Shown in pieces: positions 14,873 to 63,836 of a stretch of 64,000 nucleotides of DNA. This DNA is from Eukaryota sp. GEM-RC1. Its lineage: Eukaryota. The DNA is taken from NCBI GenBank assembly GCA_040285855.1, contig JAUFOQ010000013.1, forward strand, positions 496,001 through 560,000. The letters are read 5' to 3'. Position numbers and translations under genes: made by a program. A model generated the notes under the pieces. That model saw nothing but the letters and a program-made list of their open reading frames with translations, searched no databases and was not told the DNA's origin. Position 1 is the first letter of the stretch; every line of letters starts with the position of its first letter.

Positions 14873-15675
14873 TCATAGAATCAATCGCTTTAAAGTCGCG
14901 ATCTCTCCTGAACTCTCTACCATTGATTTTAACGACTGTTGTGTTTGACTGTTGATTGAGTTGTAATCTAGATTGATCGTAGAAACTGAAGAATTCACCT
15001 TCAAAGCTTCAGCAATTGCAATAGCTCCTTCAGGACCAATTGAGTTGTTACCTAGATCGATCGTAGAAACTGAAGAATTCACCTTCAAAGCTTCAGCAAT
15101 TGCAATAGCTCCTTCATTACCAATTGAGTTGTTATATAGATGGATCGTAGAAACTGAAGAATTCACCTTCAAAGCTTCAGCAATTGCAATAGCTCCTTCA
15201 TTACCAATTGAGTTTTCAGCTAGATAAATCTCAGAAACTGAAGAATTCACCTTCAAAGCTTCAGCAATTGCAATAGCTCCTTCATTACCAATTGAGTTGT
15301 TCCATAGATAAATCTCAGAAACTGAAGAATTCACCTTCAAAGCTTCAGCAATTGCAATAGCTCCTTCATTACCAATTGAGTTGTTATCTAGATAAATCGC
15401 AGAAACTGAAGAATTCACCTTCAAAGCTTCAGCAATTGCAATAGCTCCTTCATTACCAATTGAGTTGCCACCTAGATAAATCTCAGAAACTGAACAATTC
15501 ACCTTCAAAGCTTCAGCAATTGCAATAGCTCCTTCACTACCAATTGAATTGTGCCTTAGATAAATCGTAGAAACTGCAGAATTCACCTTCAAAGCTTCAG
15601 CAATTGCAATAGCTCCTTCAGGACCAATTGAGTTGTAATCTAGATTGATCGTAGAAACCTCATATTTCTCACCAT
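14873..15675 (-). pseudogene. LRR cassette, terminal unit of array 1; no in-frame ATG; unique C-terminus
   Basis: The open LRR frame begins at EVSTINLDYN. The ATG homologue is out of frame because of a 2-bp insertion (aaat-at-gag). It ends SLKSMVESSGEIATLKRLIL. Confidence 0.85.
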
Positions 15676-16005
15676 TTCATCTCAACAATTTTAATAATGA
15701 AACTGTACATTGGGAATTCGATGGTAAATGTATAGTAGAAATTACCAATTCTTCAGATACTAATGAAGTTCTGTTGTTGTTGTGAACAATAACAAAAGTA
15801 CCAGTAAATAACGTGTGTTATTCATTAGGGCAGTATTTAAAATCTGTACTTGAACATTTGCTAAACTACTATGATATTTGACTCTGTCACGGAGTTTTGT
15901 TTGGAATAATTTTTGGTCTGAGGAAAATGATTTTTCAAGTGTGTATTATACTCAACGATTAATTATGGTACTTTTGATGAGAGATTAATTATGATTAATG
16001 ACAAA

Positions 16006-16589
16006 ACTATATGTTTAAGGCTAATGGTTTTCATGGAAAAATTGAACCTTTACTTGCTAATCTTTCTGATCAGCCAAAAGTTGATAGAAGTCGTGGTGAT
16101 TTGATTGGTCCTTGGTTATCTTGTTAGGATATTATCATGGATTTCACGACTGTTGATCCTTGTAATTCAAGATCAATTTCCAAAATTTTTGATGATGATT
16201 TTTCTGCTCTTGAAGTGGCTGAAAAAGGAAAAAATACAAAGTACTGTCACTTAATTAACCAATTGAATGTTGACAGGTACAATTCTTTTGTGTTTCAACC
16301 TTTTGCGATGTCGATATATGGTAATATTGGACCAGCTGCACAAGGTTTTTTAACCTCCTTTGGTAAATTGTGTTCTGAGTATGGTAAAGTTTTTAATGAA
16401 AATTTTTGGTTGAGTAGGTTAACGTTTGCGTTGTTTCGTTCAATGCACAGACATTTTAATTCAATTTTAGGTAAGTTGTTCGGTGATGGACAGAAGGATC
16501 ATAGTTTAGATACTTTAGTTAGTGTCTGTTAGTTATTAACTTCTGCAAATGCATTTATTTCACTGATTGATCATAAACCCCGTTTTTTT
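16006..16589 (+). mobile_element. 5'-truncated RLE-type non-LTR retrotransposon fragment in cassette spacer (copy 1)
   Basis: EP..RGDL..DFTTVDP..AEKGKNTKY..FQPFAMSIYGNIGPAAQGFL..FW..RL.FAL.R. Flanked by an atgacaaa duplication that is single-copy in empty spacers. In-frame TAG. Confidence 0.8.
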
Positions 16590-16626
16590 ATGACAAATGT
16601 GATTTTTATATACAATGAAAACTTGT

Positions 16627-17489
16627 TTAAAAAGATATTCTATTTTTGTGTAGTGATTTTAACGACTGTTGTGTTTGACTGTTGATTGAGTTGTTATGTA
16701 GATAAATCGTAGAAACTGAAGAATTCACCTTCAAAGCTTCAGCAATTGCAATAGCTCCTTCACTACCAATTGAGTTGTTACCTAGAGAAATCGTAGAAAC
16801 TGAAGAATTCACCTTCAAAGCTTCAGCAATTGCAATAGCTCCTTCACTACCAATTGAGTTGTTACCTAGAGAAATCGTAGAAACTGAAGAATTCACCTTC
16901 AACGCTTCAGCAATTGCAATAGCTCCTTCACTACCAATTGAGTTGTTACCTAGAGAAATCGTAGAAACTGAAGAATTCACCTTCAACGCTTCAACAATTG
17001 CAATAGCTCCTTCATTACCAATTGAGTTGTCACCTAAACCAATCGTAGAAACTGAAGAATTCACCTTCAAAGCTTCAGCAATTGCAATAGCTCCTTCATT
17101 ACCAATTGAGTTGTTCCATAGATAAATCTCAGAAACTGAAGAATTCACCTTCAAAGCTTCAGCAATTGCAATAGCTCCTTCATTACCAATTGAGTTGTTA
17201 TCTAGATAAATCGCAGAAACTGAAGAATTCACCTTCAAAGCTTCAGCAATTGCAATAGCTCCTTCATTACCAATTGAGTTGCCACCTAGATAAATCTCAG
17301 AAACTGAACAATTCACCTTCAAAGCTTCAGCAATTGCAATAGCTCCTTCACTACCAATTGAATTGTGCCTTAGATAAATCGTAGAAACTGCAGAATTCAC
17401 CTTCAAAGCTTCAGCAATTGCAATAGCTCCTTCAGGACCAATTGAGTTGTAATCTAGATTGATCGTAGAAACCTCATATTTCTCACCAT
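16627..17489 (-). pseudogene. LRR cassette, no in-frame ATG, KNRISF end
   Basis: Open LRR frame (ORF track 259 aa from TTG); same 2-bp insertion at the 5' junction. Confidence 0.85.
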
Positions 17490-17819
17490 TTCATCTCAAC
17501 AATTTTAATAATGAAACTGTACATTGGGAATTCGATGGTAAATGTATAGTAGAAATTAACAATTCTTCAGATACTAATGAAGTTCTGTTGTTGTTGTGAA
17601 CAATAACAAAAGTACCAGTAAATAACGTGTGTTATTCATTAGGGCAGTATTTAAAATCTGTACTTGAACATTTGCTAAACTACTATGATATTTGACTCTG
17701 TCACGGAGTTTTGTTTGGAATAATTTTTGGTCTGAGGAAAATGATTTTTCAAGTGTGTATTATACTCAACGATTAATTATGGTACTTTTGATGAGAGATT
17801 AATTATGATTAATGACAAA

Positions 17820-18401
17820 ACTATATGTTTAAGGCTAATGGTTTTCATGGAAAAATTGAACCTTTACTTGCTAATCTTTCTGATCAGCCAAAAGTTGATA
17901 GAAGTCGTGGTGATTTGATTGGTCCTTGGTTATCTTGTTAGGAAATTATCGTGGATTTCACGACTGTTGATCCTTGTAATTCAAGATCAATTTCCAAAAT
18001 TTTTGATGATGATTTTTCTGCTCTTGAAGTGGCTGAAAAGGAAAAAATACAAAGTACTGTCACTTAATTAACCAATTGAATGTTGACAGGTACAATTCTT
18101 TTGTGTTTCAACCTTTTGCGATGTCGATATATGGTAATATTGGACCAGCTGCACAAGGTTTTTTAACCTCCTTTGGTAAATTGTGTTCTGAGTATGGTAA
18201 AGTTTTTAATGAAAATTTTTGGTTGAGTAGGTTAACGTTTGCGTTGTTTCGTTCAATGCACAGACATTTTAATTCAATTTTAGGTAAGTTGTTCGGTGAT
18301 GGACAGAAGGATCATAGTTTAGATACTTTAGTTAGTGTCTGTTAGTTATTAACTTCTGCAAATGCATTTATTTCACTGATTGATCATAAACCCCGTTTTT
18401 T
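17820..18401 (+). mobile_element. RLE retrotransposon fragment (copy 2)
   Basis: Near-identical to 16006-16589 with the same flanks. Confidence 0.8.
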
Positions 18402-18438
18402 ATGACAAATGTGATTTTTATATACAATGAAAACTTGT

Positions 18439-19553
18439 TTAAAAAGATATTCTATTTTTGTGTAGTGATTTTAACGACTGTTGTGTTTGACTGTTGATTG
18501 AGTTGTTATGTAGATAAATCGTAGAAACTGAAGAATTCACCTTCAAAGCTTCAGCAATTGCAATAGCTCCTTCAGGACCAATTGAATTGTTATATAGATA
18601 AATCTGAGAAACTGAAGAATTCACCTTCAAAGCTTCAGCAATTGCAATAGCTCCTTCACTACCAATTGAGTTGTTACCTAGAGAAATCGTAGAAACTGAA
18701 GAATTCACCTTCAAAGCTTCAGCAATTGCAATAGCTCCTTCACTACCAATTGAGTTGTTACCTAGAGAAATCGTAGAAACTGAAGAATTCACCTTCAACG
18801 CTTCAGCAATTGCAATAGCTCCTTCACTACCAATTGAGTTGTTACCTAGAGAAATCGTAGAAACTGAAGAATTCACCTTCAACGCTTCAACAATTGCAAT
18901 AGCTCCTTCATTACCAATTGAGTTGTCACCTAAACCAATCGTAGAAACTGAAGAATTCACCTTCAAAGCTTCAGCAATTGCAATAGCTCCTTCATTACCA
19001 ATTGAGTTGTTATATAGATAAATCTGAGAAACTGAAGAATTCACCTTCAAAGCTTCAGCAATTGCAATAGCACCTTCATTACCAATTGAGTTATTACCTA
19101 GATCGATCGTAGAAACTGAAGAATTCACCTTCAAAGCTTCAGCAATTACAATAGCTCCTTCATTACCAATTGAGTTGTTCCATAGATAAATCTCAGAAAC
19201 TGAAGAATTCACCTTCAAAGCTTCAGCAATTGCAATAGCTCCTTCATTACCAATTGAGTTGTTATCTAGATAAATCGCAGAAACTGAAGAATTCACCTTC
19301 AAAGCTTCAGCAATTGCAATAGCTCCTTCATTACCAATTGAGTTGCCACCTAGATAAATCTCAGAAACTGAACAATTCACCTTCAAAGCTTCAGCAATTG
19401 CAATAGCTCCTTCACTACCAATTGAATTGTGCCTTAGATAAATCGTAGAAACTGCAGAATTCACCTTCAAAGCTTCAGCAATTGCAATAGCTCCTTCAGG
19501 ACCAATTGAGTTGTAATCTAGATTGATCGTAGAAACCTCATATTTCTCACCAT
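18439..19553 (-). pseudogene. LRR cassette, no in-frame ATG, KNRISF end
   Basis: Open LRR frame (343 aa from TTG). Confidence 0.85.
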
Positions 19554-19883
19554 TTCATCTCAACAATTTTAATAATGAAACTGTACATTGGGAATTCGAT
19601 GGTAAATGTATAGTAGAAATTAACAATTCTTCAGATACTAATGAAGTTCTGTTGTTGTTGTGAACAATAACAAAAGTACCAGTAAATAACGTGTGTTATT
19701 CATTAGGGCAGTATTTAAAATCTGTACTTGAACATTTGCTAAACTACTATGATATTTGACTCTGTCACGGAGTTTTGTTTGGAATAATTTTTGGTCTGAG
19801 GAAAATGATTTTTCAAGTGTGTATTATACTCAACGATTAATTATGGTACTTTTGATGAGAGATTAATTATGATTAATGACAAA

Positions 19884-20467
19884 ACTATATGTTTAAGGCT
19901 AATGGTTTTCATGGAAAAATTGAACCTTTACTTGCTAATCTTTCTGATCAGCCAAAAGTTGATAGAAGTCGTGGTGATTTGATTGGTCCTTGGTTATCTT
20001 GTTAGGAAATTATCATGGATTTCACGACTGTTGATCCTTGTAATTCAAGATCAATTTCCAAAATTTTTGATGATGATTTTTCTGCTCTTGAAGTGGCTGA
20101 AAAAGGAAAAAATACAAAGTACTGTCACTTAATTAACCAATTGAATGTTGACAGGTACAATTCTTTTGTGTTTCAACCTTTTGCGATGTCGATATATGGT
20201 AATATTGGACCAGCTGCACAAGGTTTTTTAACCTCCTTTGGTAAATTGTGTTCTGAGTATGGTAAAGTTTTTAATGAAAATTTTTGGTTGAGTAGGTTAA
20301 CGTTTGCGTTGTTTCGTTCAATGCACAGACATTTTAATTCAATTTTAGGTAAATTGTTCGGTGATGGACAGAAGGATCATAGTTTAGATACTTTAGTTAG
20401 TGTCTGTTAGTTATTAACTTCTGCAAATGCATTTATTTCACTGATTGATCATAAACCCCGTTTTTTT
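19884..20467 (+). mobile_element. RLE retrotransposon fragment (copy 3)
   Basis: Near-identical to 16006-16589 with the same flanks. Confidence 0.8.
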
Positions 20468-20504
20468 ATGACAAATGTGATTTTTATATACAATGAAAAC
20501 TTGT

Positions 20505-21451
20505 TTAAAAAGATATTCTATTTTTGTGTAGTGATTTTAACGACTGTTGTGTTTGACTGTTGATTGAGTTGTTATGTAGATAAATCGTAGAAACTGAAGA
20601 ATTCACCTTCAAAGCTTCAGCAATTGCAATAGCTCCTTCACTACCAATTGAGTTGTTACCTAGAGAAATCGTAGAAACTGAAGAATTCACCTTCAAAGCT
20701 TCAGCAATTGCAATAGCTCCTTCACTACCAATTGAGTTGTTACCTAGAGAAATCGTAGAAACTGAAGAATTCACCTTCAACGCTTCAGCAATTGCAATAG
20801 CTCCTTCACTACCAATTGAGTTGTTACCTAGAGAAATCGTAGAAACTGAAGAATTCACCTTCAACGCTTCAACAATTGCAATAGCTCCTTCATTACCAAT
20901 TGAGTTGTCACCTAAACCAATCGTAGAAACTGAAGAATTCACCTTCAAAGCTTCAGCAATTGCAATAGCTCCTTCATTACCAATTGAGTTGTCACCTAAA
21001 CCAATCGTAGAAACTGAAGAATTCACCTTCAAAGCTTCAGCAATTGCAATAGCTCCTTCATTACCAATTGAGTTTTCAGCTAGATAAATCTCAGAAACTG
21101 AAGAATTCACCTTCAAAGCTTCAGCAATTGCAATAGCTCCTTCATTACAAATTGAGTTGTTCCATAGATAAATCTCAGAAACTGAAGAATTCACCTTCAA
21201 AGCTTCAGCAATTGCAATAGCTCCTTCATTACCAATTGAGTTGTTATCTAGATAAATCGCAGAAACTGAACAATTCACCTTCAAAGCTTCAGCAATTGCA
21301 ATAGCTCCTTCACTACCAATTGAATTGTGCCTTAGATAAATCGTAGAAACTGCAGAATTCACCTTCAAAGCTTCAGCAATTGCAATAGCTCCTTCAGGAC
21401 CAATTGAGTTGTAATCTAGATTGATCGTAGAAACCTCATATTTCTCACCAT
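20505..21451 (-). pseudogene. LRR cassette, no in-frame ATG, KNRISF end
   Basis: Open LRR frame (287 aa from TTG). Confidence 0.85.
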
Positions 21452-21781
21452 TTCATCTCAACAATTTTAATAATGAAACTGTACATTGGGAATTCGATGG
21501 TAAATGTATAGTAGAAATTAACAATTCTTCAGATACTAATGAAGTTCTGTTGTTGTTGTGAACAATAACAAAAGTACCAGTAAATAACGTGTGTTATTCA
21601 TTAGGGCAGTATTTAAAATCTGTACTTGAACATTTGCTAAACTACTATGATATTTGACTCTGTCACGGAGTTTTGTTTGGAATAATTTTTGGTCTGAGGA
21701 AAATGATTTTTCAAGTGTGTATTATACTCAACGATTAATTATGGTACTTTTGATGAGAGATTAATTATGATTAATGACAAA

Positions 21782-22366
21782 ACTATATGTTTAAGGCTAA
21801 TGGTTTTCATGGAAAAATTGAACCTTTACTTGCTAATCTTTCTGATCAGCCAAAAGTTGATAGAAGTCGTGGTGATTTGATTGGTCCTTGGTTATCTTGT
21901 TAGGGAAATTATCGTGGATTTCACGACTGTTGATCCTTGTAATTCAAGATCAATTTCCAAAATTTTTGATGATGATTTTTCTGCTCTTGAAGTGGCTGAA
22001 AAAGGAAAAAATACAAAGTACTGTCACTTAATTAACCAATTGAATGTTGACAGGTACAATTCTTTTGTGTTTCAACCTTTTGCGATGTCGATATATGGTA
22101 ATATTGGACCAGCTGCACAAGGTTTTTTAACCTCCTTTGGTAAATTGTGTTCTGAGTATGGTAAAGTTTTTAATGAAAATTTTTGGTTGAGTAGGTTAAC
22201 GTTTGCGTTGTTTTGTTCAATGCACAGACATTTTAATTCAATTTTAGGTAAGTTGTTCGGTGATGGACAGAAGGATCATAGTTTAGATACTTTAGTTAGT
22301 GTCTGTTAGTTATTAACTTCTGCAAATGCATTTATTTCACTGATTGATCATAAACCCCGTTTTTTT
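21782..22366 (+). mobile_element. RLE retrotransposon fragment (copy 4)
   Basis: Near-identical to 16006-16589 with the same flanks. Confidence 0.8.
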
Positions 22367-22403
22367 ATGACAAATGTGATTTTTATATACAATGAAAACT
22401 TGT

Positions 22404-22825
22404 TTAAAAAGATATTCTATTTTTGTGTAGTGATTTTAACGACTGTTGTGTTTGACTGTTGATTGAGTTGTTATGTAGATAAATCGTAGAAACTGAAGAA
22501 TTCACCTTCAAAGCTTCAGCAATTGCAATAGCTCCTTCACTACCAATTGAGTTGTTACCTAGAGAAATCGTAGAAACTGAAGCAATTGCAATAGCTCCTT
22601 CATTACCAATTGAGTTTTCAGCTAGATAAATCTCAGAAACTGAAGAATTCACCTTCAAAGCTTCAGCAATTGCAATAGCTCCTTCATTACCAATTGAGGT
22701 GTTTTCTAGATAAATCTGAGAAACTGAAGAATTCACCTTCAAAGCTTCAGCGATTGCAATAGCTCCTTCATTACCAATTGAGTTGTAATCTAGATTGATC
22801 GTAGAAACCTCATATTTCTCACCAT
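22404..22825 (-). pseudogene. Short LRR cassette with an in-frame internal deletion
   Basis: ..EGAIAIA-SVSTISLGNN.. lacks EALKVNS; KNRISF end. Confidence 0.85.
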
Positions 22826-22993
22826 TTCATCTCAACAATTTTAATAATGAAACTGTACATTGGGAATTCGATGGTAAATGTATAGTAGAAATTAACAATT
22901 CTTCAGATACTAATAAAGTTCTGTTGTTGTTGTGAACAATAACAAAAGTACCAGTAAATAACGTGTGTTATTCATTAGGGCAGTATTTAAAAT

Positions 22994-23209
22994 TTGAGTT
23001 GTTATCTAGATGGATCGTAGAAACTGAAGAATTCACCTTCAAAGCTTCAGCAATTGCAATAGCTCCTTCATTACCAATTGAGTTGTTATATAGATAAATC
23101 TCAGAAACTGAAGAATTCACCTTCAAAGCTTCAGCAATTGCAATAGCTCCTTCATTACCAATTGAGTTGTAATCTAGATTGATCGTAGAAACCTCATATT
23201 TCTCACCAT
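22994..23209 (-). pseudogene. 3'-truncated LRR cassette immediately downstream of the TRIM-LRR gene
   Basis: Two and a half repeats are fused directly to mid-spacer sequence (cagtatttaaaat|ttgagttg); no C-cap. Confidence 0.85.
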
Positions 23210-23568
23210 TTCATCTCAACAATTTTAATAATGAAACTGTACATTGGGAATTCGATGGTAAATGTATAGTAGAAATTAACAATTCTTCAGATACTAATAA
23301 AGTTCTGTTGTTGTTGTGAACAATAACAAAAGTACCAGTAAATAACGTGTGTTATTCATTAGGGCAGTATTTAAAATCTGTACTTGAACATCTGCTAAAC
23401 TACTATGATATTTGACTCTGTCACGGAGTTTTGTTTGGGATAATGTTTGTTCTGAGCAAAATGATTTTTCAAGTGTGTATTATATTCACCGATTAATTAT
23501 GGGACTTTTGATGAGAAATTAATTATGATTAATGACAAATGTGATTTTTATATACAATGAAAACTTGT

Positions 23569-25356
23569 TTAAAAATCCATTCTATTTTTGTGTAGTGATT
23601 TTAACGACTGTTGTGTTTGACTGTTGATTGAGTTGTTATATAGATAAATCTGAGAAACTGAAGCATTCACCTTCAGAGCTTCAGCAATTGCAATAGCTCC
23701 TTCATTACCAATTGAGTTTGCAGCTAGATAAATCTCAGAAACTGAAGAATTCACCTTCAAAGCTTCAGCAATTGCAATAGCTCCTTCATTACCAATTGAG
23801 TTGTTTCCTAGATAAATCGTAGAAACTGAAGAATTCACCTTCAAAGCTTCAGCAATTGCAATAGCTCCTTCATTACCAATTGAGTTGTCCCATAGATAAA
23901 TCTCAGAAACTGAAGAATTCACCTTCAAAGATTCAGCAATTGCAATTGCTCCTTCAGGACCAATTGAGTTGTTATATAGATTGATCGTAGAAACTGAAGA
24001 ATTCACCTTCAAAGCTTCAGCAATTGCAATAGCTCCTTCAGGACCAATTGAGTTGTTTTGTAGATTGATCGTAGAAACTGAAGAATTCACCTTCAAAGCT
24101 TCAGCAATTGCAATAGCTCCTTCATTACCAATTGAGTTGTCCCATAGATAAATCTCAGAAACTGAAGAATTCACCTTCAAAGATTCAGCAATTGCAATTG
24201 CTCCTTCAGGACCAATTGAGTTGTTATATAGATTGATCGTAGAAACTGAAGAATTCACCTTCAAAGCTTCAGCAATTGCAATAGCTCCTTCATTACCAAT
24301 TGAGTTGTTATCTAGATAAATCGTAGAAACCTCATTTCTCACCATTTCATCATAACAATTCTTCAACTTCGAACTAAGCTCGTTCCAATCAATAACAAGC
24401 TCCTTCTCTTCAACTTGTTGTACAGGACAAACACTTGTAATAGACTTGATTGGTGAAGGAGTGTCATCTAGAAGCCTAGCAGAAGCAACATTGGACTCCG
24501 AAACAACGGAAAGAGAGGCCAAACGACGAGAAGCTTCGGAGTGGATAGAGCAAAGTTCTTCATTTAAAGAGGAAATGATAGCAGATTGGTTGTTAAGTAG
24601 GGTGGAAGTTGTGGTAATGAAGTTTTCGCCGATCTTTGGTTTAAAGATAACAGGCTTACCTGATTTTAAGTCATTCATGATGGTAACAGAGTCTAACATA
24701 GTTTCTTGCAGCATATCAGTTAGAGTTTCTTTCATTTGAGCAAATCCAGATGCCGCTTGTTGGAGAGCATTTTCTGTACACTTTCCGACGGTTTCTACAG
24801 CAACGGCTAGTTCTTGATTGATGGCATTAATGCCATGTTCTACAGCAGATCTTCCTTCGTCAAACGGAAGCAAATTCTTCTTGTGCTGGTCGTGGTCCCC
24901 AAGGATAGCACAAATTGAGCAAAGCGCAACAGAACAAGAAGTACAGAAGAGGTCAAAGGATTTGGACGGATGGATCGGACATTTAGGCACAATGGAGGCG
25001 TGTTTCTTTTGCAGCGGAATTGCAACGTGGGTACGTAAGAGTTTCGGCCGATGAATGTCCTTAAAACATTGGTCGCATAAATCAGCGTCACATTCTGCGC
25101 AATAACAAGTGGCAACAGCTTCATCACACTCAATACAAATAGACTCACCCTGACCAGCAACGAAGGCTTCAACAGCTTCTTTCAACTTGTAGTTAGGACA
25201 CAGCCTTGACTTGTCCACTTCAGCTCTACAAATTGGACATCCGTCATGAGAAACAAGCCACTCCTGTAAATCCGACATACAAAAGGTGTGGCCACACCAA
25301 GTAGTTACCGGATTCTTGAGAATTTCATGACATATATCACATAGATAGTGAGACAT
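23569..25356 (-). CDS. TRIM-like E3 ubiquitin ligase: RING, B-box, B-box, coiled coil, then 8 RI/NLRC3-like 28-aa LRRs plus cap (595 aa)
   Basis: RING CDIC..CGHTFCMSD..CPIC; B-box CIEC..CYCAEC..LCDQC..H..H; B-box CPIH..LFCTSC..LCSIC..H..H; helical linker; repeats of LKVNSSVSxIxLxxNSIGxEGAIAIAEA. Uninterrupted ORF with ATG. Confidence 0.92.
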   Translation of the reverse strand: MSHYLCDICHEILKNPVTTWCGHTFCMSDLQEWLVSHDGCPICRAEVDKSRLCPNYKLKEAVEAFVAGQGESICIECDEAVATCYCAECDADLCDQCFKDIHRPKLLRTHVAIPLQKKHASIVPKCPIHPSKSFDLFCTSCSVALCSICAILGDHDQHKKNLLPFDEGRSAVEHGINAINQELAVAVETVGKCTENALQQAASGFAQMKETLTDMLQETMLDSVTIMNDLKSGKPVIFKPKIGENFITTTSTLLNNQSAIISSLNEELCSIHSEASRRLASLSVVSESNVASARLLDDTPSPIKSITSVCPVQQVEEKELVIDWNELSSKLKNCYDEMVRNEVSTIYLDNNSIGNEGAIAIAEALKVNSSVSTINLYNNSIGPEGAIAIAESLKVNSSVSEIYLWDNSIGNEGAIAIAEALKVNSSVSTINLQNNSIGPEGAIAIAEALKVNSSVSTINLYNNSIGPEGAIAIAESLKVNSSVSEIYLWDNSIGNEGAIAIAEALKVNSSVSTIYLGNNSIGNEGAIAIAEALKVNSSVSEIYLAANSIGNEGAIAIAEALKVNASVSQIYLYNNSINSQTQQSLKSLHKNRMDF

Positions 25357-30408: not shown

Positions 30409-30438
30409 TAAACTAACAGATGAACAAATTTTAATTTT

Positions 30439-34829: not shown

Positions 34830-34867
34830 ACTAGAAGGCAACAAGGTTCAAGACATGTAAATCGATA

Positions 34868-54046: not shown

Positions 54047-54741
54047 TTAAAAATACTTTCTATTTTTGTGTAGTGATTTTAACGACTGTTGTGTTTGACT
54101 GTTGATTGAGTTGTTACCTAGAAAAATCGTAGAAACTGAAGAATTCACCTTCAAAGCTTCAGCAATCGCAATAGCTCCTTCATTACCAATTGAGTTTTCA
54201 GCTAGATAAATCTCAGAAACTGAAGAATTCACCTTCAAAGCTTCAGCAATTGCAATAGCTCCTTCATTACCAATTGAGTTGGTCCATAGATTGATCGTAG
54301 AAACTGAAGAATTCACCTTCAAAGCTTCAGCAATTGCAATAGCTCCTTCATTACCAATTGAGTTGTAATCTAGATCGATCCTAGAAACTGAGGAATTCAC
54401 CTTCAAAGCTTCAGCAATTGCAATAGCTCCTTCAGGACCAATTGAGTTGGTCCATAGATTGATCGTAGAAACTGAAGAATTCACCTTCAAAGATTCAGCA
54501 ATTGCAATAGCTCCTTCAGGACCAATTGAGTTGTTATCTAGATGGATCGTAGAAACTGAAGAATTCACCTTCAAAGCTTCAGCAATTGCAATAGCTCCTT
54601 CATTACCAATTGAGTTGTTATATAGATAAATCTCAGAAACTGAAGAATTCACCTTCAAAGCTTCAGCAATTGCAATAGCTCCTTCATTACCAATTGAGTT
54701 GTAATCTAGATTGATCGTAGAAACCTCATATTTCTCACCAT
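54047..54741 (-). pseudogene. LRR cassette of array-1 type, no in-frame ATG
   Basis: Carries the aaat-at-gag 2-bp insertion; KNRKYF end. Confidence 0.8.
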
Positions 54742-55101
54742 TTCATCTCAACAATTTTAATAATGAAACTGTACATTGGGAATTCGATGGTAAATGTATA
54801 GTAGAAATTAACAATTCTTCAGATACTAATAAAGTTCTGTTGTTGTTGTGAACAATAACAAAAGTACCAGTAAATAACGTGTGTTATTCATTAGGGCAGT
54901 ATTTAAAATCTGTACTTGAACATCTGCTAAACTACTATGATATTTGACTCTGTCACGGAGTTTTGTTTGGGATAATGTTTGTTCTGAGCAAAATGATTTT
55001 TCAAGTGTGTATTATATTCACCGATTAATTATGGGACTTTTGATGAGAAATTAATTATGATTAATGACAAATGTTATTTTTTATATACAATGAAAACTTG
55101 T

Positions 55102-55878
55102 TTAAAAATCCATTCTATTTTTGTGTAGTGATTTTAACGACTGTTGTGTTTGACTGTTGATTGAGTTGTTATCTAGAAAAATCGTAGAAACTGAAGAATT
55201 CACCTTCAAAGCTTCAGCAATCGCAATAGCTCCTTCATTACCAATTGAGTTGTTACATAGATAAATCTGAGAAACTGAAGCATTCACCTTCAAAGCTTCA
55301 GCAATTGCAAAAGCTCCTTCATTACCAATTGAGTTGGTCCATAGATTGATCGTAGAAACTGAAGAATTCACCTTCAAAGATTCAGCAATTGCAATAGCTC
55401 CTTCAGGACCAATTGAGTTGTTATCTAGATGGATCGTAGAAACTGAAGAATTCACCTTCAAAGCTTCAGCAATTGCAATAGCTCCTTCATTACCAATTGA
55501 GTTGTTATATAGATAAATCTCAGAAACTGAAGAATTCACCTTCAAAGCTTCAGCAATTGCAATAGCTCCTTCATTACCAATTGAGTTGGTACATAGATTG
55601 ATCGTAGAAACTGAAGAATTGACCTTCAAAGATTCAGCAATTGCAATAGCTCCTTCAGTACCAATTGAGTTGTTAAATAGATAAATCTTAGAAACTGAAG
55701 AATTCACCTTCAAAGCTTCAGCAATTGCAATAGCTCCTTCATTACCAATTGAGTTGTTATATAGATAAATCGTAGAAACTGAAGAATTCACCTTCAAAGC
55801 TTCAGCCATTGCAATAGCTCATTCAGTACCAATTGAGTTGTTATATAGATTGATCGTAGAACTCTCATTTCTCAACAT
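55102..55878 (-). pseudogene. Chimeric LRR cassette with a nonsense codon in the first repeat and a TRIM1-type KNRMDF end
   Basis: GGA>TGA at about 55820; the downstream frame is open for 235 aa. Confidence 0.8.
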
Positions 55879-56237
55879 TTCGTCTCAACAATTTTAATAA
55901 TGAAACTGTACATTGGTAATTCGATGGTAAATGTACGGTATCATTTAACAATATTTCAGATACTAATAAATTTCTGTTGCTGTTGAGAACAATAGCAAAA
56001 GTACCAGTAAATAACGTGTGTTATTCACCAGGGTAGTATTTAAAATCTGTACTTGAACATCTGCTAAACTACTATGATATTTCACTCTGTCACGGAGTTT
56101 TGTTTGGGATAATGATTGTTCTGAGCTAAAGGATTTTTCAAGTGTGTATTATATTCACCGATTAATTATGGTACTTTTGATGAGAAATTAATTATGATTA
56201 ATGACAAATGTGATTTTTATATACAATGAAAACTTGT

Positions 56238-56876
56238 TTAAAAATACATTCTATTTTTGTGTAGTGATTCTAACGACTGTTGTGTTTGACTGTTGATTGA
56301 GTTGTTACCTAGATCGATCGCAGAAACTGAAGAATTCACCTTCAAAGCTTCAGCAATTGCAATAGCTCCTTCAACACCAATTGAGTTGTAATCTAGATTG
56401 ATCTTAGAAACTGAAGAATTCACCTTCAACGCTTCAGCAATTGCAATAGCTCCTTCAACACCAATTGAGTTGAAACCTAGATTGATCTTAGAAACTGAAG
56501 AATTTACCTTCAAAGCTTCAGCAATTGCAATAGCTCCTTCAGTACCAATTGAGTTGTTAAATAGATAAATCGTAGAAACTGAAGAATTCACCTTCAAAGC
56601 TTCAGCAATTGCAATAGCTCCTTCAGTACCAATTGAGTTCGCAATAGCTCCTTCAGGACCAATTGAGTTGTTATCTAGAAAAATCGTAGAAACTGAAGAA
56701 TTCACCTTCAAAGCTTCAGCAATTGCAATAGCTCCTTCATTACCAATTGAGTTGTTATATAGATAAATCGTAGAAACTGAAGAATTCACCTTCAAAGCTT
56801 CAGCCATTGCAATAGCTCCTTCAGTACCAATTGAGTTGTTATATAGATTGATCGTAGAACTCTCATTTCTCAACAT
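56238..56876 (-). CDS. LRR-only cassette ORF, 212 aa
   Basis: Intact. Confidence 0.7.
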   Translation of the reverse strand: MLRNESSTINLYNNSIGTEGAIAMAEALKVNSSVSTIYLYNNSIGNEGAIAIAEALKVNSSVSTIFLDNNSIGPEGAIANSIGTEGAIAIAEALKVNSSVSTIYLFNNSIGTEGAIAIAEALKVNSSVSKINLGFNSIGVEGAIAIAEALKVNSSVSKINLDYNSIGVEGAIAIAEALKVNSSVSAIDLGNNSINSQTQQSLESLHKNRMYF

Positions 56877-57234
56877 TTCGTCTCAACAATTTTAATAATG
56901 AAACTGTACATTGGTAATTCGATGGTAAATGTACGGTATCATTTAACAATATTTCAGATACTAATAAATTTCTGTTGCTGTTGAGAACAATAGCAAAGTA
57001 CCAGTAAATAACGTGTGTTATTCACCAGGGTAGTATTTAAAATCTGTACTTGAACATCTGCTAAACTACTATGATATTTCACTCTGTCACGGAGTTTTGT
57101 TTGGGATAATGATTGTTCTGAGCTAAAGGATTTTTCAAGTGTGTATTATATTCACCGATTAATTATGGTACTTTTGATGAGAAATTAATTATGATTAATG
57201 ACAAATGTGATTTTTATATACAATGAAAACTTGT

Positions 57235-57873
57235 TTAAAAATACATTCTATTTTTGTGTAGTGATTTTAACGACTGTTGTGTTTGACTGTTGATTGAGTT
57301 GTTACCTAGATCGATCGCAGAAACTGAAGAATTCACCTTCAAAGCTTCAGCAATTGCAATAGCTCCTTCAACACCAATTGAGTTGTAATCTAGATTGATC
57401 TTAGAAACTGAAGAATTCACCTTCAACGCTTCAGCAATTGCAATAGCTCCTTCAACACCAATTGAGTTGAAACCTAGATTGATCTTAGAAACTGAAGAAT
57501 TTACCTTCAAAGCTTCAGCAATTGCAATAGCTCCTTCAGTACCAATTGAGTTGTTAAATAGATAAATCGTAGAAACTGAAGAATTCACCTTCAAAGCTTC
57601 AGCAATTGCAATAGCTCCTTCAGTACCAATTGAGTTCGCAATAGCTCCTTCAGGACCAATTGAGTTGTTATCTAGAAAAATCGTAGAAACTGAAGAATTC
57701 ACCTTCAAAGCTTCAGCAATCGCAATAGCTCCTTCAGGACCAATTGAGTTGTTATCTAGATAAATCGTAGAAACTGAAGAATTCACCTTCAAAGCTTCAG
57801 CCATTGCAATAGCTCCTTCATTACCAATTGAGTTGTTATATAGATTGATCGTAGAACTCTCATTTCTCAACAT
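57235..57873 (-). CDS. LRR-only cassette ORF, 212 aa
   Basis: Intact. Confidence 0.7.
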   Translation of the reverse strand: MLRNESSTINLYNNSIGNEGAIAMAEALKVNSSVSTIYLDNNSIGPEGAIAIAEALKVNSSVSTIFLDNNSIGPEGAIANSIGTEGAIAIAEALKVNSSVSTIYLFNNSIGTEGAIAIAEALKVNSSVSKINLGFNSIGVEGAIAIAEALKVNSSVSKINLDYNSIGVEGAIAIAEALKVNSSVSAIDLGNNSINSQTQQSLKSLHKNRMYF

Positions 57874-58231
57874 TTCGTCTCAACAATTTTAATAATGAAA
57901 CTGTACATTGGTAATTCGATGGTAAATGTACGGTATCATTTAACAATATTTCAGATACTAATAAATTTCTGTTGCTGTTGAGAACAATAGCAAAGTACCA
58001 GTAAATAACGTGTGTTATTCACCAGGGTAGTATTTAAAATCTGTACTTGAACATCTGCTAAACTACTATGATATTTCACTCTGTAACGGAGTTTTGTTTG
58101 GGATAATGATTGTTCCGAGCTAAAGGATTTTTCAAGTGTGTATTATATTCACCGATTAATTATGGTACTTTTGATGAGAAATTAATTATGATTAATGACA
58201 AATGTGATTTTTATATACAATGAAAACTTGT

Positions 58232-59404
58232 TTAAAAATACATTCTATTTTTGTGTAGTGATTTTAACGACTGTTGTGTTTGACTGTTGATTGAGTTGTT
58301 ACCTAGATCGATCGCAGAAACTGAAGAATTCACCTTCAACGCTTCAGCAATTGCAATAGCTCCTTCAACACCAATTGAGTTGTAATCTAGATTGATCTTA
58401 GAAACTGAAGAATTCACCTTCAACGCTTCAGCAATTGCAATAGCTCCTTCAACACCAATTGAGTTGAAACCTAGATTGATCTTAGAAACTGAAGAATTTA
58501 CCTTCAAAGCTTCAGCAATTGCAATAGCTCCTTCAGTACCAATTGAGTTGTTAAATAGATAAATCGCAGAAACTGAAGAATTCACCTTCAAAGCTTCAGC
58601 AATTGCAATAGCTCCTTCAGTACCAATTGAGTTCGCAATAGCTCCTTCAGGACCAATTGAGTTGATATCTAGAAAAATCGTAGAAACTGAAGAATTCACC
58701 TTCAAAGCTTCAGCAATCGCAATAGCTCCTTCAGGACCAATTGAGTTCGCAATAGCTCCTTCAGGACCAATTGAGTTGATATCTAGAAAAATCGTAGAAA
58801 CTGAAGAATTCACCTTCAAAGCTTCAGCAATCGCAATAGCTCCTTCAGGACCAATTGAGTTGTTATCAAGAAAAATCGTAGAAACTGAAGAATTCACCTT
58901 CAAAGCTTCAGCAATCGCAATAGCTTCTTCAACACCAATTGAGTTGAAACCTAGATAAATCTCAGAAACTGAAGAATTCACCTTCAAAGATTCAGCAATT
59001 GCAATAGCTCCTTCATTACCAATTGAGTTGTTCCTTAGATCGATCGTAGAAACTGAAGAATTCACCTTCAAAGATTCAGCAATTGTAATAGCTCCTTCAG
59101 GACCAATTGAGTTGTTATCTAGATAAATCTCAGAAACTGAAGAATTCACCTTCAAAGCTTCAGCAATTGCAATAGCTCCTTCATTACCAATTGAGTTGTT
59201 TCCTAGATAAATCTCAGAAACTGAAGAATTCACCTTCAAAGCTTCAGCAATCGCAATAGCTCCTTCAGGACCAATTGAGTTGTTATCTAGATAAATCGTA
59301 GAAACTGAAGAATTCACCTTCAAAGCTTCAGCCATTGCAATAGCTCCTTCATTACCAATTGAGTTGTTATATAGATTGATCGTAGAACTCTCATTTCTCA
59401 ACAT
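58232..59404 (-). CDS. LRR-only cassette ORF, 390 aa
   Basis: Intact. Confidence 0.7.
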   Translation of the reverse strand: MLRNESSTINLYNNSIGNEGAIAMAEALKVNSSVSTIYLDNNSIGPEGAIAIAEALKVNSSVSEIYLGNNSIGNEGAIAIAEALKVNSSVSEIYLDNNSIGPEGAITIAESLKVNSSVSTIDLRNNSIGNEGAIAIAESLKVNSSVSEIYLGFNSIGVEEAIAIAEALKVNSSVSTIFLDNNSIGPEGAIAIAEALKVNSSVSTIFLDINSIGPEGAIANSIGPEGAIAIAEALKVNSSVSTIFLDINSIGPEGAIANSIGTEGAIAIAEALKVNSSVSAIYLFNNSIGTEGAIAIAEALKVNSSVSKINLGFNSIGVEGAIAIAEALKVNSSVSKINLDYNSIGVEGAIAIAEALKVNSSVSAIDLGNNSINSQTQQSLKSLHKNRMYF

Positions 59405-59763
59405 TTCGTCTCAACAATTTTAATAATGAAACTGTACATTGGTAATTCGATGGTAAATGTACGGTATCATTTAACAATATTTCAGATACTAATAAATTTC
59501 TGTTGCTGTTGAGAACAATAGCAAAAGTACCAGTAAATAACGTGTGTTATTCACCAGGGTAGTATTTAAAATCTGTACTTGAACATCTGCTAAACTACTA
59601 TGATATTTCACTCTGTAACGGAGTTTTGTTTGGGATAATGATTGTTCCGAGCTAAAGGATTTTTCAAGTGTGTATTATATTCACCGATTAATTATGGTAC
59701 TTTTGATGAGAAATTAATTATGATTAATGACAAATGTGATTTTTATATACAATGAAAACTTGT

Positions 59764-60204
59764 TTAAAAATACATTCTATTTTTGTGTAGTGATTTTAAC
59801 GACTGTTGTGTTTGACTGTTGATTGAGTTGTTACCTAGATCGATCGCAGAAACTGAAGAATTCACCTTCAACACTTCAGCAATTGCAATAGCTCCTTCAA
59901 CACCAATTGAGTTGTAATCTAGATTGATCTTAGAAACTGAAGAATTCACCTTCAACGCTTCAGCAATTGCAATAGCTCCTTCAACACCAATTGAGTTGAA
60001 ACCTAGATTGATCTTAGAAACTGAAGAATTTACCTTCAAAGCTTCAGCAATTGCAATAGCTCCTTCAGTACCAATTGAGTTGTTAAATAGATAAATCGCA
60101 GAAACTGAAGAATTCACCTTCAAAGCTTCAGCAATTGCAATAGCTCCTTCATTACCAATTGAGTTGTTATATAGATTGATCGTAGAACTCTCATTTCTCA
60201 ACAT
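59764..60204 (-). CDS. LRR-only cassette ORF, 146 aa
   Basis: Intact. Confidence 0.7.
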   Translation of the reverse strand: MLRNESSTINLYNNSIGNEGAIAIAEALKVNSSVSAIYLFNNSIGTEGAIAIAEALKVNSSVSKINLGFNSIGVEGAIAIAEALKVNSSVSKINLDYNSIGVEGAIAIAEVLKVNSSVSAIDLGNNSINSQTQQSLKSLHKNRMYF

Positions 60205-60563
60205 TTCGTCTCAACAATTTTAATAATGAAACTGTACATTGGTAATTCGATGGTAAATGTACGGTATCATTTAACAATATTTCAGATACTAATAAATTTC
60301 TGTTGCTGTTGAGAACAATAGCAAAAGTACCAGTAAATAACGTGTGTTATTCACCAGGGTAGTATTTAAAATCTGTACTTGAACATCTGCTAAACTACTA
60401 TGATATTTCACTCTGTAACGGAGTTTTGTTTGGGATAATGATTGTTCCGAGCTAAAGGATTTTTCAAGTGTGTATTATATTCACCGATTAATTATGGTAC
60501 TTTTGATGAGAAATTAATTATGATTAATGACAAATGTGATTTTTATATACAATGAAAACTTGT

Positions 60564-61511
60564 TTAAAAATACATTCTATTTTTGTGTAGTGATTTTAAC
60601 GACTGTTGTGTTTGACTGTTGATTGAGTTGTTACCTAGATCGATCGCAGAAACTGAAGAATTCACCTTCAACACTTCAGCAATTGCAATAGCTCCTTCAA
60701 CACCAATTGAGTTGTAATCTAGATTGATCTTAGAAACTGAAGAATTCACCTTCAACGCTTCAGCAATTGCAATAGCTCCTTCAACACCAATTGAGTTGAA
60801 ACCTAGATTGATCTTAGAAACTGAAGAATTTACCTTCAAAGCTTCAGCAATTGCAATAGCTCCTTCAGTACCAATTGAGTTGTTAAATAGATAAATCGCA
60901 GAAACTGAAGAATTCACCTTCAAAGCTTCAGCAATTGCAATAGCTCCTTCAGTACCAATTGAGTTCGCAATAGCTCCTTCAGGACCAATTGAGTTGATAT
61001 CTAGAAAAATCGTAGAAACTGAAGAATTCACCTTCAAAGCTTCAGCAATCGCAATAGCTCCTTCAGGACCAATTGAGTTCGCAATAGCTCCTTCAGGACC
61101 AATTGAGTTCGCAATAGCTCCTTCAGGACCAATTGAGTTGATATCTAGAAAAATCGTAGAAACTGAAGAATTCACCTTCAAAGCTTCAGCAATCGCAATA
61201 GCTCCTTCAGGACCAATTGAGTTGTTATCAAGAAAAATCGTAGAAACTGAAGAATTCACCTTCAAAGCTTCAGCAATCGCAATAGCTTCTTCAACACCAA
61301 TTGAGTTGAAACCTAGATAAATCTCAGAAACTGAAGAATTCACCTTCAAAGATTCAGCAATTGCAATAGCTCCTTCATTACCAATTGAGTTGTTCCTTAG
61401 ATCGATCGTAGAAACTGAAGAATTCACCTTCAAAGATTCAGCAATTGCAATAGCTCCTTCAGGACCAATTGAGTTGTTATCTAGATAAATCGTAGAAACC
61501 TCATTTCTCAC
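60564..61511 (-). pseudogene. LRR cassette, open frame of 315 codons but no ATG
   Basis: 5' end reads TGA GAT GAA AGG GTG AGA AAT GAG (ATG>AGG). Confidence 0.8.
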
Positions 61512-61872
61512 CCTTTCATCTCAACAATGTCAATAATGAAACTGTACATTGGTAATTCGATGGTAAATGTATAGTAGAAATTAACAATACTTCAGATACT
61601 AATAAATTTCTGTTGCTGTTGAGAACAATAGCAAAGTACCAGTAAATAACGTGTGTTATTCACCAGGGTAGTATTTAAAATCTGTACTTGAACATCTGCT
61701 AAACTACTATGATATTTCACTCTGTCACGGAGTTTTGTTTGGGATAATGATTGTTCTGAGCTAAAGGATTTTTCAAGTGTGTATTATATTCACCGATTAA
61801 TTATGGTACTTTTGATGAGAAATTAATTATGATTAATGACAAATGTGATTTTTATATACAATGAAAACTTGT

Positions 61873-62820
61873 TTAAAAATACATTCTATTTTTGTGCAGT
61901 GATTTTAACGTCTGTTGTGTTTGACTGTTGATTGAGTTGTTACCTAGATCGATCGCAGAAACTGAAGAATTCACCTTCAACGCTTCAGCAATTGCAATAG
62001 CTCCTTCAACACCAATTGAGTTGTAATCTAGATTGATCTTAGAAACTGAAGAATTCACCTTCAACGCTTCAGCAATTGAAATAGCTCCTTCAACACCAAT
62101 TGAGTTGAAACCTAGATTGATCTTAGAAACTGAAGAATTTACCTTCAAAGCTTCAGCAATTGCAATAGCTCCTTCAGTACCAATTGAGTTGTTAAATAGA
62201 TAAATCGTAGAAACTGAAGAATTCACCTTCAAAGCTTCAGCAATTGCAATAGCTCCTTCAGTACCAATTGAGTTCGCAATAGCTCCTTCAGGACCAATTG
62301 AGTTGTTATCTAGAAAAATCGTAGAAACTGAAGAATTCACCTTCAAAGCTTCAGCAATCGCAATAGCTCCTTCAGGACCAATTGAGTTCGCAATAGCTCC
62401 TTCAGGACCAATTGAGTTCGCAATAGCTCCTTCAGGACCAATTGAGTTGATATCTAGAAAAATCGTAGAAACTGAAGAATTCACCTTCAAAGCTTCAGCA
62501 ATCGCAATAGCTCCTTCAGGACCAATTGAGTTGTTATCAAGAAAAATCGTAGAAACTGAAGAATTCACCTTCAAAGCTTCAGCAATCGCAATAGCTTCTT
62601 CAACACCAATTGAGTTGAAACCTAGATAAATCTCAGAAACTGAAGAATTCACCTTCAAAGATTCAGCAATTGCAATAGCTCCTTCATTACCAATTGAGTT
62701 GTTCCTTAGATCGATCGTAGAAACTGAAGAATTCACCTTCAAAGATTCAGCAATTGCAATAGCTCCTTCAGGACCAATTGAGTTGTTATCTAGATAAATC
62801 GTAGAAACCTCATTTCTCAC
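61873..62820 (-). pseudogene. LRR cassette, open frame of 315 codons but no ATG
   Basis: Same 5' end as 60564-61511; 1309-bp period. Confidence 0.8.
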
Positions 62821-63182
62821 CCTTTCATCTCAACAATGTCAATAATGAAACTGTACATTGGTAATTCGATGGTAAATGTATAGTAGAAATTAACAATACT
62901 TCAGATACTAATAAATTTCTGTTGCTGTTGAGAACAATAGCAAAAGTACCAGTAAATAACGTGTGTTATTCACCAGGGTAGTATTTAAAATCTGTACTTG
63001 AACATCTGCTAAACTACTATGATATTTCACTCTGTAACGGAGTTTTGTTTGGGATAATGATTGTTCCGAGCTAAAGGATTTTTCAAGTGTGTATTATATT
63101 CACCGATTAATTATGGTACTTTTGATGAGAAATTAATTATGATTAATGACAAATGTGATTTTTATATACAATGAAAACTTGT

Positions 63183-63836
63183 TTAAAAATACATTCTATT
63201 TTTGTGTAGTGATTTTAACGACTGTTGTGTTTGACTGTTGATTGAGTTGTTATCTAGATAAATCGTAGTAACTGAAGAATTCACCTTCAAAGCTTCAGCA
63301 ATTGCAATAGCTCCTTCATTACCAATTAAGTTGTTATATAGATTGATCGTAGAAACTGAAGAATTCACCTTCAAAGATTCAGCAATTGCAATAGCTCCTT
63401 CAGGACCAATTGAGTTGTTATCTAGATAAATCGTAGTAACTGAAGAATTCACCTTCAAAGCTTCAGCAATTGCAATAGCTCCTTCATTACCAATTGAGTT
63501 GTTATCTAGATAAATCGTAGAAACCTCATTTCTCACCATTTCATCATAACAATTCTTCAACTTCGAACTAAGCTTGCTCCAATCAATAACAAGCTCCTTC
63601 TCTTCAACTTGTTGTACAAGGCACACACTTTCAATAGACTTGATTGGCGAAGGAGTGTCATCTAGAAGCCTAGCAGAAGCAACATTGGACTCCGAAACAA
63701 CGGAAAGAGAGGCCAAACGACGAGAAGCTTCGGAGTGAATAGAGCAAAGTTCTTCATTTAAAGAGGAGATGATAGCGGATTGGTTGTTAAGTAGGGTGGA
63801 AGTTGTGGTAATGAAGTTTCCTCTTTCAATCTCACC
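63183..63836 (-). pseudogene. 3' half of a second TRIM-LRR paralogue (linker, 3 LRRs, cap), interrupted at its 5' side by a repeat
   Basis: NFITTTSTLLNNQSAIISSLNEELCSIHSEASRRLASLSVVSESN..KLKNCYDEMVRNEV is nearly identical to 24330-24624. The frame closes upstream within the repeat at 63837 onward. Confidence 0.85.

What the first reader, a model, noticed from the sequence alone, without database searches (positions are those of the whole stretch)
14945..63520. Hypervariability confined to five codons per 84-bp repeat, on the predicted ligand-binding face
The consensus is TTG AAG GTG AAT TCT TCA GTT TCT [x1] ATY [x2] CTA [x3][x4] AAC TCA ATT GGT [x5] GAA GGA GCT ATT GCA ATT GCT GAA GCT. Observed residues: x1 = T/E/A/K/Q/R; x2 = Y/N/D/H/S/G/F; x3 = D/Y/G/W/A/F/R/Q/E/H/C/N; x4 = N/D/Y/E/T/F/H/G/I/A; x5 = N/P/S/T/V/D. 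The rest is nearly invariant even at synonymous sites. These are the x positions of LxxLxLxxN, the concave face where VLRs and plant NLRs bind ligand, and aromatic residues are frequent. The pattern implies scaffold homogenisation with diversifying selection or targeted variation.
Basis: partly seen in the sequence, partly recalled or inferred. Interest (0 to 1): 0.85.

Follow-up and report, generated by a model that had tools for sequence, protein, structure and literature searches.

The report
TRIM-like ligase with spare LRR cassettes
A single-celled eukaryote has one complete gene for a predicted ubiquitin-tagging protein that ends in leucine-rich repeats, plus 33 headless copies of that repeat tail nearby; five surface codons per repeat vary far more than the rest, likely because ordinary recombination and selection keep changing what the protein binds, as is known for fungal and algal recognition genes.

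Summary
Observation confirmed, on the minus strand. Among 80 distinct 84-bp repeats, five codons carry 33 replacement and 2 silent steps; the other 23 codons carry 23 and 15. Four of the five lie on or just after the predicted concave strand; the fifth starts the helix. Relatives are named Eukaryota sp. GEM-RC1 (a Skoliomonas metamonad). Repeats are shuffled within and between arrays, and a tract of about 650 bp at the intact gene's 3' end recurs 31.5 kb away. A targeted mutator is not supported: silent adenines are fixed and new mutations are not enriched at the five codons. Most cassettes show decay, and none of the intact gene's seven inner repeats has an exact cassette copy. Best reading: concerted evolution plus diversifying selection, as in fungal high-internal-conservation receptors, with the cassettes a mostly silent store. 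A programmed cassette system (about 0.12) is not excluded; no RNA or read data were available. New variant of a known kind.

The parts
23569..25356 (-). Intact single-ORF gene, 595 aa: RING, two B-boxes, helical (coiled-coil-like) region, disordered linker, N-cap helix, 9 LRRs, C-cap
   Evidence: ORF; Pfam; present as a predicted protein, P0001; model
24880..25356 (-). RING (residues 6-44; sixth ligand is Asp, His in P0003/P0004) and two B-boxes (about 74-111, 124-159)
   Evidence: Pfam zf-C3HC4, zf-B_box (2 stretches), ANCHR-like B-box; matches to TRIM28, TRIM3, TRIM2, TRIM25, TRIM21; sequences
24514..24864 (-). Long helices 165-220, 223-231, 244-281, TRIM-type coiled coil by position
   Evidence: AlphaFold2, pLDDT about 45-65 here
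23572..24372 (-). N-cap helix (329-339) and LRR domain of the intact gene; first repeat has x1 at 24324-24322, x2 24318-24316, x3 24312-24310, x4 24309-24307, x5 24294-24292
   Evidence: pLDDT about 83-97; strand covers x1-I-x2-L-x3
14873..23223 (-). Array B: 6 headless cassettes (units 30-35; 2-13 repeats); in all six the ATG at the 5' junction is out of frame with the repeats
63183..63836 (-). Truncated head (second half of the helical region, linker) with 4 LRRs; joined upstream to a copy of the array's downstream flank
35463..62837 (-). Array A: 27 headless cassettes (units 2-28; 1-18 repeats), each LRR array + C-cap + stop + about 425-bp spacer
   Evidence: spacers 91-100% identical to the first
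62812..63236 (-). Example of the 425-bp unit tail (C-cap codons, stop, non-coding spacer, 5' junction that restarts in the head's linker)
22994..23639 (-). Tract shared with array A: C-cap of the intact gene, spacer and first repeats of unit 30
   Evidence: 549 bp and 95 bp exact matches to 55074-54526 and 55172-55078
54526..55172 (-). Copy of that tract inside array A (end of unit 8, start of unit 9)
   Evidence: spacer tree pairs j54755 with j23223
55819..55821 (-). Nonsense codon in the first repeat of unit 8
21770..22380 (.). About 595-bp insertion with 8-bp target duplication in four array-B spacers (also 19872-20481, 17808-18415, 15994-16603)
   Evidence: copies 99.3% identical
63837..63999 (-). 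Copy (91%) of the downstream flank 34868-35032, marking a larger duplicated unit that continues beyond the window

Best explanation
The five variable codons lie in 84-bp leucine-rich repeats that end one intact TRIM-like gene and 33 headless tandem copies of its tail; the pattern likely comes from unequal crossing-over and gene conversion that keep the scaffold uniform and shuffle alleles, plus diversifying selection on the predicted substrate-binding face, with the headless copies likely a mostly silent store of variants. Shown: the layout, the excess of replacement changes at five codons, recombination within repeats, one recent exchange between the intact gene's 3' end and the other array, decay in most cassettes. 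Inferred: the protein is a cytosolic E3 ligase whose LRR picks a fast-changing target (bacterial or viral protein); selection acts in intact family members; one illegitimate duplication made the first headless unit (all share the junction except four re-deleted ones) and crossing-over multiplied it; exchange with the cassettes happens over evolutionary time, without a dedicated enzyme.
For: Selection: 33 replacement:2 silent steps at five codons against 23:15 elsewhere; replacement diversity 0.40 against 0.018; spacer 0.054 (80 distinct repeats); omega 11.6 against 0.33 on a tree that ignores recombination, so inflated. Common scaffold variants are depleted of replacements (7:11, p=0.001) while rare ones look neutral (15:5; cassette-only 12:3). 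The intact gene differs from its nearest cassette repeats almost only at x codons, and its two private scaffold changes are silent. Recombination; mosaic cassettes; shared tract with 3 differences in 430 bases against 18-40 for 25 other comparable units. Decay: a nonsense codon, three frameshifted C-caps, core Leu-to-Gln in 3 units, 10-residue broken repeats in 13 units, no in-frame ATG in 14 of 33; cassettes lack the N-cap helix. The same strand sites are among the most variable in 48 GEM-RC1 and 25 Capsaspora LRR proteins.
Against: No expression or population data, so where selection acts is inferred. The intact-gene signal rests on a handful of changes. Rare variants could be residual assembly errors, which would also look neutral. 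58 five-site types sit in the window, 54 of them in cassettes, more than one 9-repeat gene explains; the source must be the wider family or expressed cassettes. 13 cassettes keep an ATG-to-C-cap ORF. Relaxed constraint alone explains variation at exposed sites in part, though not a replacement rate about three times the silent rate. No target is known.
Confidence: 0.63

Rival explanations
1. A dedicated silent-cassette system: the headless copies are donors that are copied into the expressed TRIM-like gene at high rate within a lineage, as in lamprey VLR assembly or Borrelia vls switching (both recalled).
For: One complete gene beside 33 start-deficient or capless cassettes with homology on both sides of the repeats; one recent exchange touches the intact gene's last repeat and C-cap; 54 five-site types are held in cassettes.
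Against: None of the intact gene's 7 inner repeats has an exact copy among 176 cassette repeats (nearest 1-4 nt) and no run of two repeat types is shared. Many cassettes are near-duplicates (units 15-17 differ by 1-2 nt in 1250). No recombinase, deaminase or reverse transcriptase family among 34 window ORFs scanned; the genome could not be searched. Donors may lie in arrays outside the window.
Confidence: 0.12
2. Many cassettes are genes of their own, making LRR-only binders or decoys, and selection acts on them directly.
For: 13 of 33 have an ORF from an in-frame ATG to the normal C-cap, and two more can use an ATG in the spacer; only one nonsense codon in the codons tabulated; N-truncated family members are annotated in GEM-RC1 (P0011, P0029, P0052, P0031).
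Against: They lack the N-cap helix; 9 of the 13 carry broken 10-residue repeats; the ATG is lost or out of frame in 14 of 33; rare scaffold changes look neutral. 0 of 10 ORFs looked up are in the protein collection, weak because the relatives' annotation masked repeats first.
Confidence: 0.1
3. The cassettes are alternative last exons spliced to the head, as in mutually exclusive exon arrays.
For: Each cassette has its own stop and 3' tail; a GT six codons before the first repeat and an in-phase AG exist in most junction types.
Against: The in-phase acceptors are GAG or AAG lying in coding sequence that the head also has; no common YAG acceptor; the intact gene is a single ORF; a transcript would have to pass the first stop and 3' end. 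The organism's splice signals were not determined.
Confidence: 0.05
4. No positive selection: exposed residues are merely unconstrained, and part of the array is an assembly artefact.
For: Exposed LRR sites vary in many proteins; neighbouring genes carry frame breaks that may be assembly errors; units 15-17 are almost identical; reads could not be checked.
Against: Replacement steps per site at the five codons are 3.2 times the silent rate (p=5e-5); third positions of the same codons hardly vary; derived changes and an insertion are shared stepwise among neighbours, which errors would not give.
Confidence: 0.08
5. A targeted mutator, such as adenine-specific retrohoming from a template repeat, diversifies the five codons.
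For: Positions 1-2 vary while position 3 is fixed at x1, x2 and x5, as NNT/NNC codons in diversity-generating retroelements would.
Against: Silent adenines are fixed or nearly so (codon 16: 263 of 263; codon 12: 260 of 263; codon 6: 222 of 227). Rare new alleles are not enriched at the five codons (8 of 28, p=0.11). x3 changes at position 3 where Trp, Arg, Gln or Glu need it. No reverse transcriptase among 34 ORFs scanned.
Confidence: 0.02

Closest known systems
High-internal-conservation repeats of fungal NLR-like genes (Podospora het-d/het-e NWD family; PMC1805685 abstract; PMC13449251 passages)
   Same: Near-identical repeats, four or five surface residues under diversifying selection, repeat gain, loss and exchange within and between loci, pseudogenes taking part.
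   Different: LRR rather than WD40; RING/B-box/coiled-coil head rather than NACHT; tandem arrays of headless tails; no sign tested for a RIP-like mutator.
Brown-algal ROCO LRR exon shuffling (PMC3341825, passages)
   Same: Positively selected concave-face sites; the paper proposes non-coding LRR units as a reservoir under relaxed selection.
   Different: There one LRR per 72-nt exon; here intronless 84-nt repeats, and the spare unit is a whole multi-repeat tail with its stop and spacer.
Tetrahymena 90-bp-exon LRR genes (PMC6564038, passages)
   Same: Protist LRR family reshaped by unequal crossing-over and ectopic recombination.
   Different: Exon-per-repeat with phase-2 introns; direct tandem duplication of whole genes is rare there (about 1.6%).
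TRIM E3 ligases (TRIM28, TRIM3, TRIM25, TRIM21, TRIM5; domain definition in PMC5758549 passages)
   Same: RING, B-boxes, coiled coil, C-terminal substrate-binding domain; fast evolution of that domain as in TRIM5 SPRY (recalled).
   Different: The C-terminal domain is a ribonuclease-inhibitor-type LRR, not among the usual TRIM tails (recalled); the head had no close relative outside GEM-RC1 in a near-length search.
Lamprey VLR and Borrelia vls cassette systems (VLR as described in PMC3341825 passages; vls recalled)
   Same: An expressed locus beside many partial copies that vary at the binding face.
   Different: The gene here is complete, predicted cytosolic, and shows no exact cassette-derived inner repeat; no enzyme or switching shown.

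Membership tests
Ribonuclease-inhibitor-like LRR | 28-29 residue repeat with LxxLxLxxN strand and a helix | tested here: met
   Pfam LRR_6; model pLDDT 87; Foldseek NOD2 and ribonuclease inhibitor, TM 0.82-0.89 to the query
High-internal-conservation repeat receptors | Repeats 80-100% identical in DNA | tested here: met
   87-94% matches in uninterrupted 84-bp arrays
High-internal-conservation repeat receptors | A few surface positions under diversifying selection | tested here: met
High-internal-conservation repeat receptors | Repeat number variation and exchange between loci | tested here: met
   1-18 repeats per unit; shared tract 31.5 kb apart; between strains not testable
NLR (STAND) receptors | NACHT or NB-ARC domain | tested here: not met
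   No such family on the intact protein
TRIM/RBCC | N-terminal RING | tested here: met
   Pfam RING families above cut-off; sixth ligand is Asp
TRIM/RBCC | One or two B-boxes after the RING | tested here: met
   zf-B_box, 2 stretches, E 3e-12; TRIM28/TRIM3 matches
TRIM/RBCC | Coiled coil after the B-box | tested here: inconclusive
   Long helices 165-220 and 244-281 at pLDDT about 45-65; dimer not modelled
TRIM/RBCC | Ubiquitin ligase activity; common descent with animal TRIMs | not tested
   Activity needs the bench; no tree was built
VLR-type cassette assembly | Incomplete germline gene that is completed from cassettes | tested here: not met
   The gene at 25356-23569 is a complete ORF with 9 repeats and C-cap
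VLR/vls-type cassette conversion | Expressed locus is a mosaic of exact cassette segments | tested here: not met
   0 of 7 inner repeats match exactly any of 176 cassette repeats in the window; only the 3' end is shared; cassettes outside the window not seen
VLR/vls-type cassette conversion | Switching within a clone, dedicated enzyme | not testable with these tools
   No genome held, no runs listed
Diversity-generating retroelement | Adenine-specific change from a template repeat | tested here: not met
   Silent adenines fixed
Diversity-generating retroelement | Linked reverse transcriptase | tested here: not met
   None among 34 selected window ORFs; not every ORF was scanned

The most novel reading that the evidence does not exclude
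A free-living metamonad runs a cassette-fed repertoire of intracellular receptors: a TRIM-like ubiquitin ligase whose LRR tail is rewritten by gene conversion from tandem arrays of silent, pre-diversified tails, an antibody-like TRIM21/VLR analogue in one cell.
Probability: 0.12. Interest if true: 0.88.

Novelty: new variant of a known kind. Interest (0 to 1): 0.5.

Why it matters
The codon pattern itself is known and recurs across protists. What is unusual is the carrier and the layout: a TRIM-like ligase with a hypervariable LRR in a deep-branching anaerobic flagellate, and about 35 kb of headless tails beside it. It is a compact, cultivable case in which the 'non-coding reservoir' idea proposed for brown algae can be tested directly with long reads from clonal lines, and a candidate for cell-autonomous defence in a bacterivore. 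If the tails feed the expressed gene at high rate, cassette-based receptor diversification would extend to intracellular ligases of single-celled eukaryotes.

Tried and rejected
No whole genome was held. No sequencing run was listed, no RNA holder listed; this is no evidence on expression, and no reads were laid. No related locus in metagenome contigs by head protein (83 pattern hits, none confirmed) or by a 26-nt scaffold motif (0); none in viral contigs (0). Earlier findings: nothing by place, by sequence or by the headless-array words. The profile-free search of 1.84 billion representatives was dominated by long LRR proteins; a motif scan of the 145 new hits printed no RING or B-box, which does not show that RING/B-box/LRR proteins are absent elsewhere. 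P0129 was checked as a possible concatenated cassette model and is an unrelated protein. The search for fused or shorter forms of the head ('longer'/'shorter') was not run. Solvent exposure was not computed; face assignment rests on secondary structure and the known LRR geometry. A paper search for ribonuclease-inhibitor contact residues gave two listings, not read. I first took the stop in unit 8 for a register artefact; one search showed it is a real in-frame stop and the counts were redone. Rows dropped: 52 terminal or broken anchors, 3 register-shifted repeats, 2 rare-variant rows caused by a 21-bp deletion and, in one version, the C-cap ATC codon.
Full report
What is there. The repeat runs on the minus strand. 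It forms 35 separate units holding 263 strand modules. Unit 29 ends an intact 595-aa ORF at 25356-23569 with RING, two B-boxes and LRR_6 matches; the head matches TRIM28, TRIM3, TRIM2, TRIM25 and TRIM21; the model gives long helices after the B-boxes, a disordered linker, an N-cap helix and nine repeats. Unit 1 has only the second half of the head and is joined to a copy of the array's downstream flank. The other 33 units are headless: 27 in array A (62.8-35.5 kb) and 6 in array B (23.2-14.9 kb). Each is an LRR run, a C-cap, a stop and a spacer of about 425 bp, and restarts in the head's linker just after the N-cap helix.

Relatives. The head's close relatives (65-81%) and two members of its 90% cluster are named Eukaryota sp. 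GEM-RC1 by NCBI. PMC11316075 (passages and section 6) describes a Skoliomonas sp. GEMRC nanopore assembly whose N50 equals a contig length listed for a GEM-RC1 protein, so the organism is likely this metamonad or a close relative. The repeat type is widespread: 297 hits among 7988 candidates, many from GEM-RC1 and Capsaspora. P0014 carries the same tail and C-cap behind an unrelated head.

The five codons. Entropy is 1.9-2.65 bits at codons 9, 11, 13, 14, 19 and at most 0.63 elsewhere (83 distinct repeats). On 80 clean distinct repeats, a per-codon minimal-step count that needs no tree gives 33 replacement and 2 silent steps at those codons, 23 and 15 in the scaffold (p=7e-4); replacement steps per site are 3.2 times the silent rate (p=5e-5); diversity is 0.40 (replacement, five codons), 0.12 (silent, five codons), 0.018 and 0.073 (scaffold), 0.054 (21 distinct spacers). 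The concentration survives correction for choosing the top five. Tree-based omega is 11.6 against 0.33, inflated by recombination and site choice. In both models the strand covers x1, x2 and x3, x4 follows it and x5 is at the helix start; the fold is that of NOD2 and ribonuclease inhibitor. That these side chains face the concave side follows from known LRR geometry. Aromatic residues and His are common: 155, 84 and 71 of 263 at x2, x3, x4. Codons 13 and 14 are the most variable, and 9 and 11 among the most variable, in 48 GEM-RC1 and 25 Capsaspora proteins too, so the site pattern is general.

Recombination. 131 of 325 informative site pairs fail the four-gamete test, at all distances, and 5 of 10 pairs of mainly silent markers fail. 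Cassettes are mosaics of shared runs of repeat types. The intact gene's C-cap, spacer and next cassette start match units 8-9 of array A over 549 and 95 exact bases, with 3 differences in 430 against 18-40 for 25 other comparable units; a Ser-to-Ala marker in the last repeat and the C-cap variant are confined to units 8 and 29. The genes between the arrays are kept, so this was a conversion-like exchange; its direction is unknown.

No targeted mutator. Silent adenines are fixed or nearly so, and rare alleles are not enriched at the five codons (8 of 28, p=0.11).

Are the cassettes silent? Against function: one nonsense codon, three frameshifted C-caps, fragments, core Leu-to-Gln in three units, broken 10-residue repeats in 13 units, no in-frame ATG in 14 of 33, no N-cap helix, and rare scaffold changes at the neutral ratio (15:5) while common ones are depleted of replacements (7:11, p=0.001). 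For function: 13 keep an ATG-to-C-cap ORF. Rare changes may include assembly errors. 0 of 10 ORFs were in the protein collection, weak because repeats were masked before gene calling in the relatives' annotation.

Do they feed the gene? The 3' tract shows that exchange reaches it. But none of its 7 inner repeats has an exact copy among 176 cassette repeats; the nearest differ by 1-4 nt, nearly all at x codons, and no pair of adjacent repeat types is shared. That fits slow exchange with selection in the intact gene better than ongoing templated assembly. Arrays outside the window could change this.

Known systems. Concerted evolution with four selected residues per repeat is described for Podospora NWD genes (PMC1805685, abstract) and such repeats occur in many lineages (PMC13449251, passages). 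Selected concave sites and a proposed non-coding reservoir are described for Ectocarpus ROCO genes (PMC3341825, passages); ectopic recombination for Tetrahymena LRR genes (PMC6564038, passages). TRIM architecture and its role in cell-autonomous defence: PMC5758549 (passages). Local expansion of arms-race genes in repeat-prone DNA: bioRxiv 2023.10.01.560391 (abstract). Searches listed no paper on LRR arrays in Skoliomonas or on a RING/B-box/LRR gene with headless cassettes; 'leucine-rich' does not occur in the main text of PMC11316075; its supplements were not read and subscription journals are not covered. Earlier notes of this scan report the same codon pattern in other protists; they are unchecked and lower the surprise.

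Verdict. Real and selected, mechanism of a known kind; the TRIM-like carrier and the headless arrays are the new part. Interest 0.5.

Noticed in passing
window 985-4119 (+): A second, divergent LRR gene in pieces: Sina-type RING, a 390-aa ORF with no Pfam match that resembles a nucleotidyltransferase of giant viruses (recalled resemblance), and two LRR_6 repeats 73-85% like the array repeats.
   Followed up: partly
window 30439-33739 (-): Kelch / cysteine-rich (Ephrin_rec_like) / membrane gene spread over six ORFs with five breaks, some at homopolymers: pseudogene or assembly indels.
   Followed up: partly
window 21770-22380 and three copies; 7738-8165: About 595-bp insertion with an 8-bp target duplication, amplified with the array-B cassettes; an 86% copy lies at 7738-8165.
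   Followed up: partly
window 417-737 (-): hAT transposase dimerisation fragment.
   Followed up: no
window 63837-63999: Copy of the flank 34868-35032 fused to mid-head: the array is part of a larger duplicated unit that likely continues beyond the window.
   Followed up: partly
P0014, P0013, P0004 (GEM-RC1 proteins): Module swapping in the family: the same LRR tail behind an unrelated head (P0014), a divergent RING/B-box/LRR (P0013), and the same head with a non-LRR tail (P0004).
   Followed up: no
window units 2-18, e.g. 62448-62388: A 54-bp in-frame deletion leaves a 10-residue half repeat that has itself been duplicated up to twice in a row.
   Followed up: partly
window 11499-13733 and 29000-29700 (-): Broken ORFs with no Pfam match (11.5-13.7 kb, those scanned) and fragments resembling Sel1 repeats (29-29.7 kb, by eye, not scanned).
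   Followed up: no
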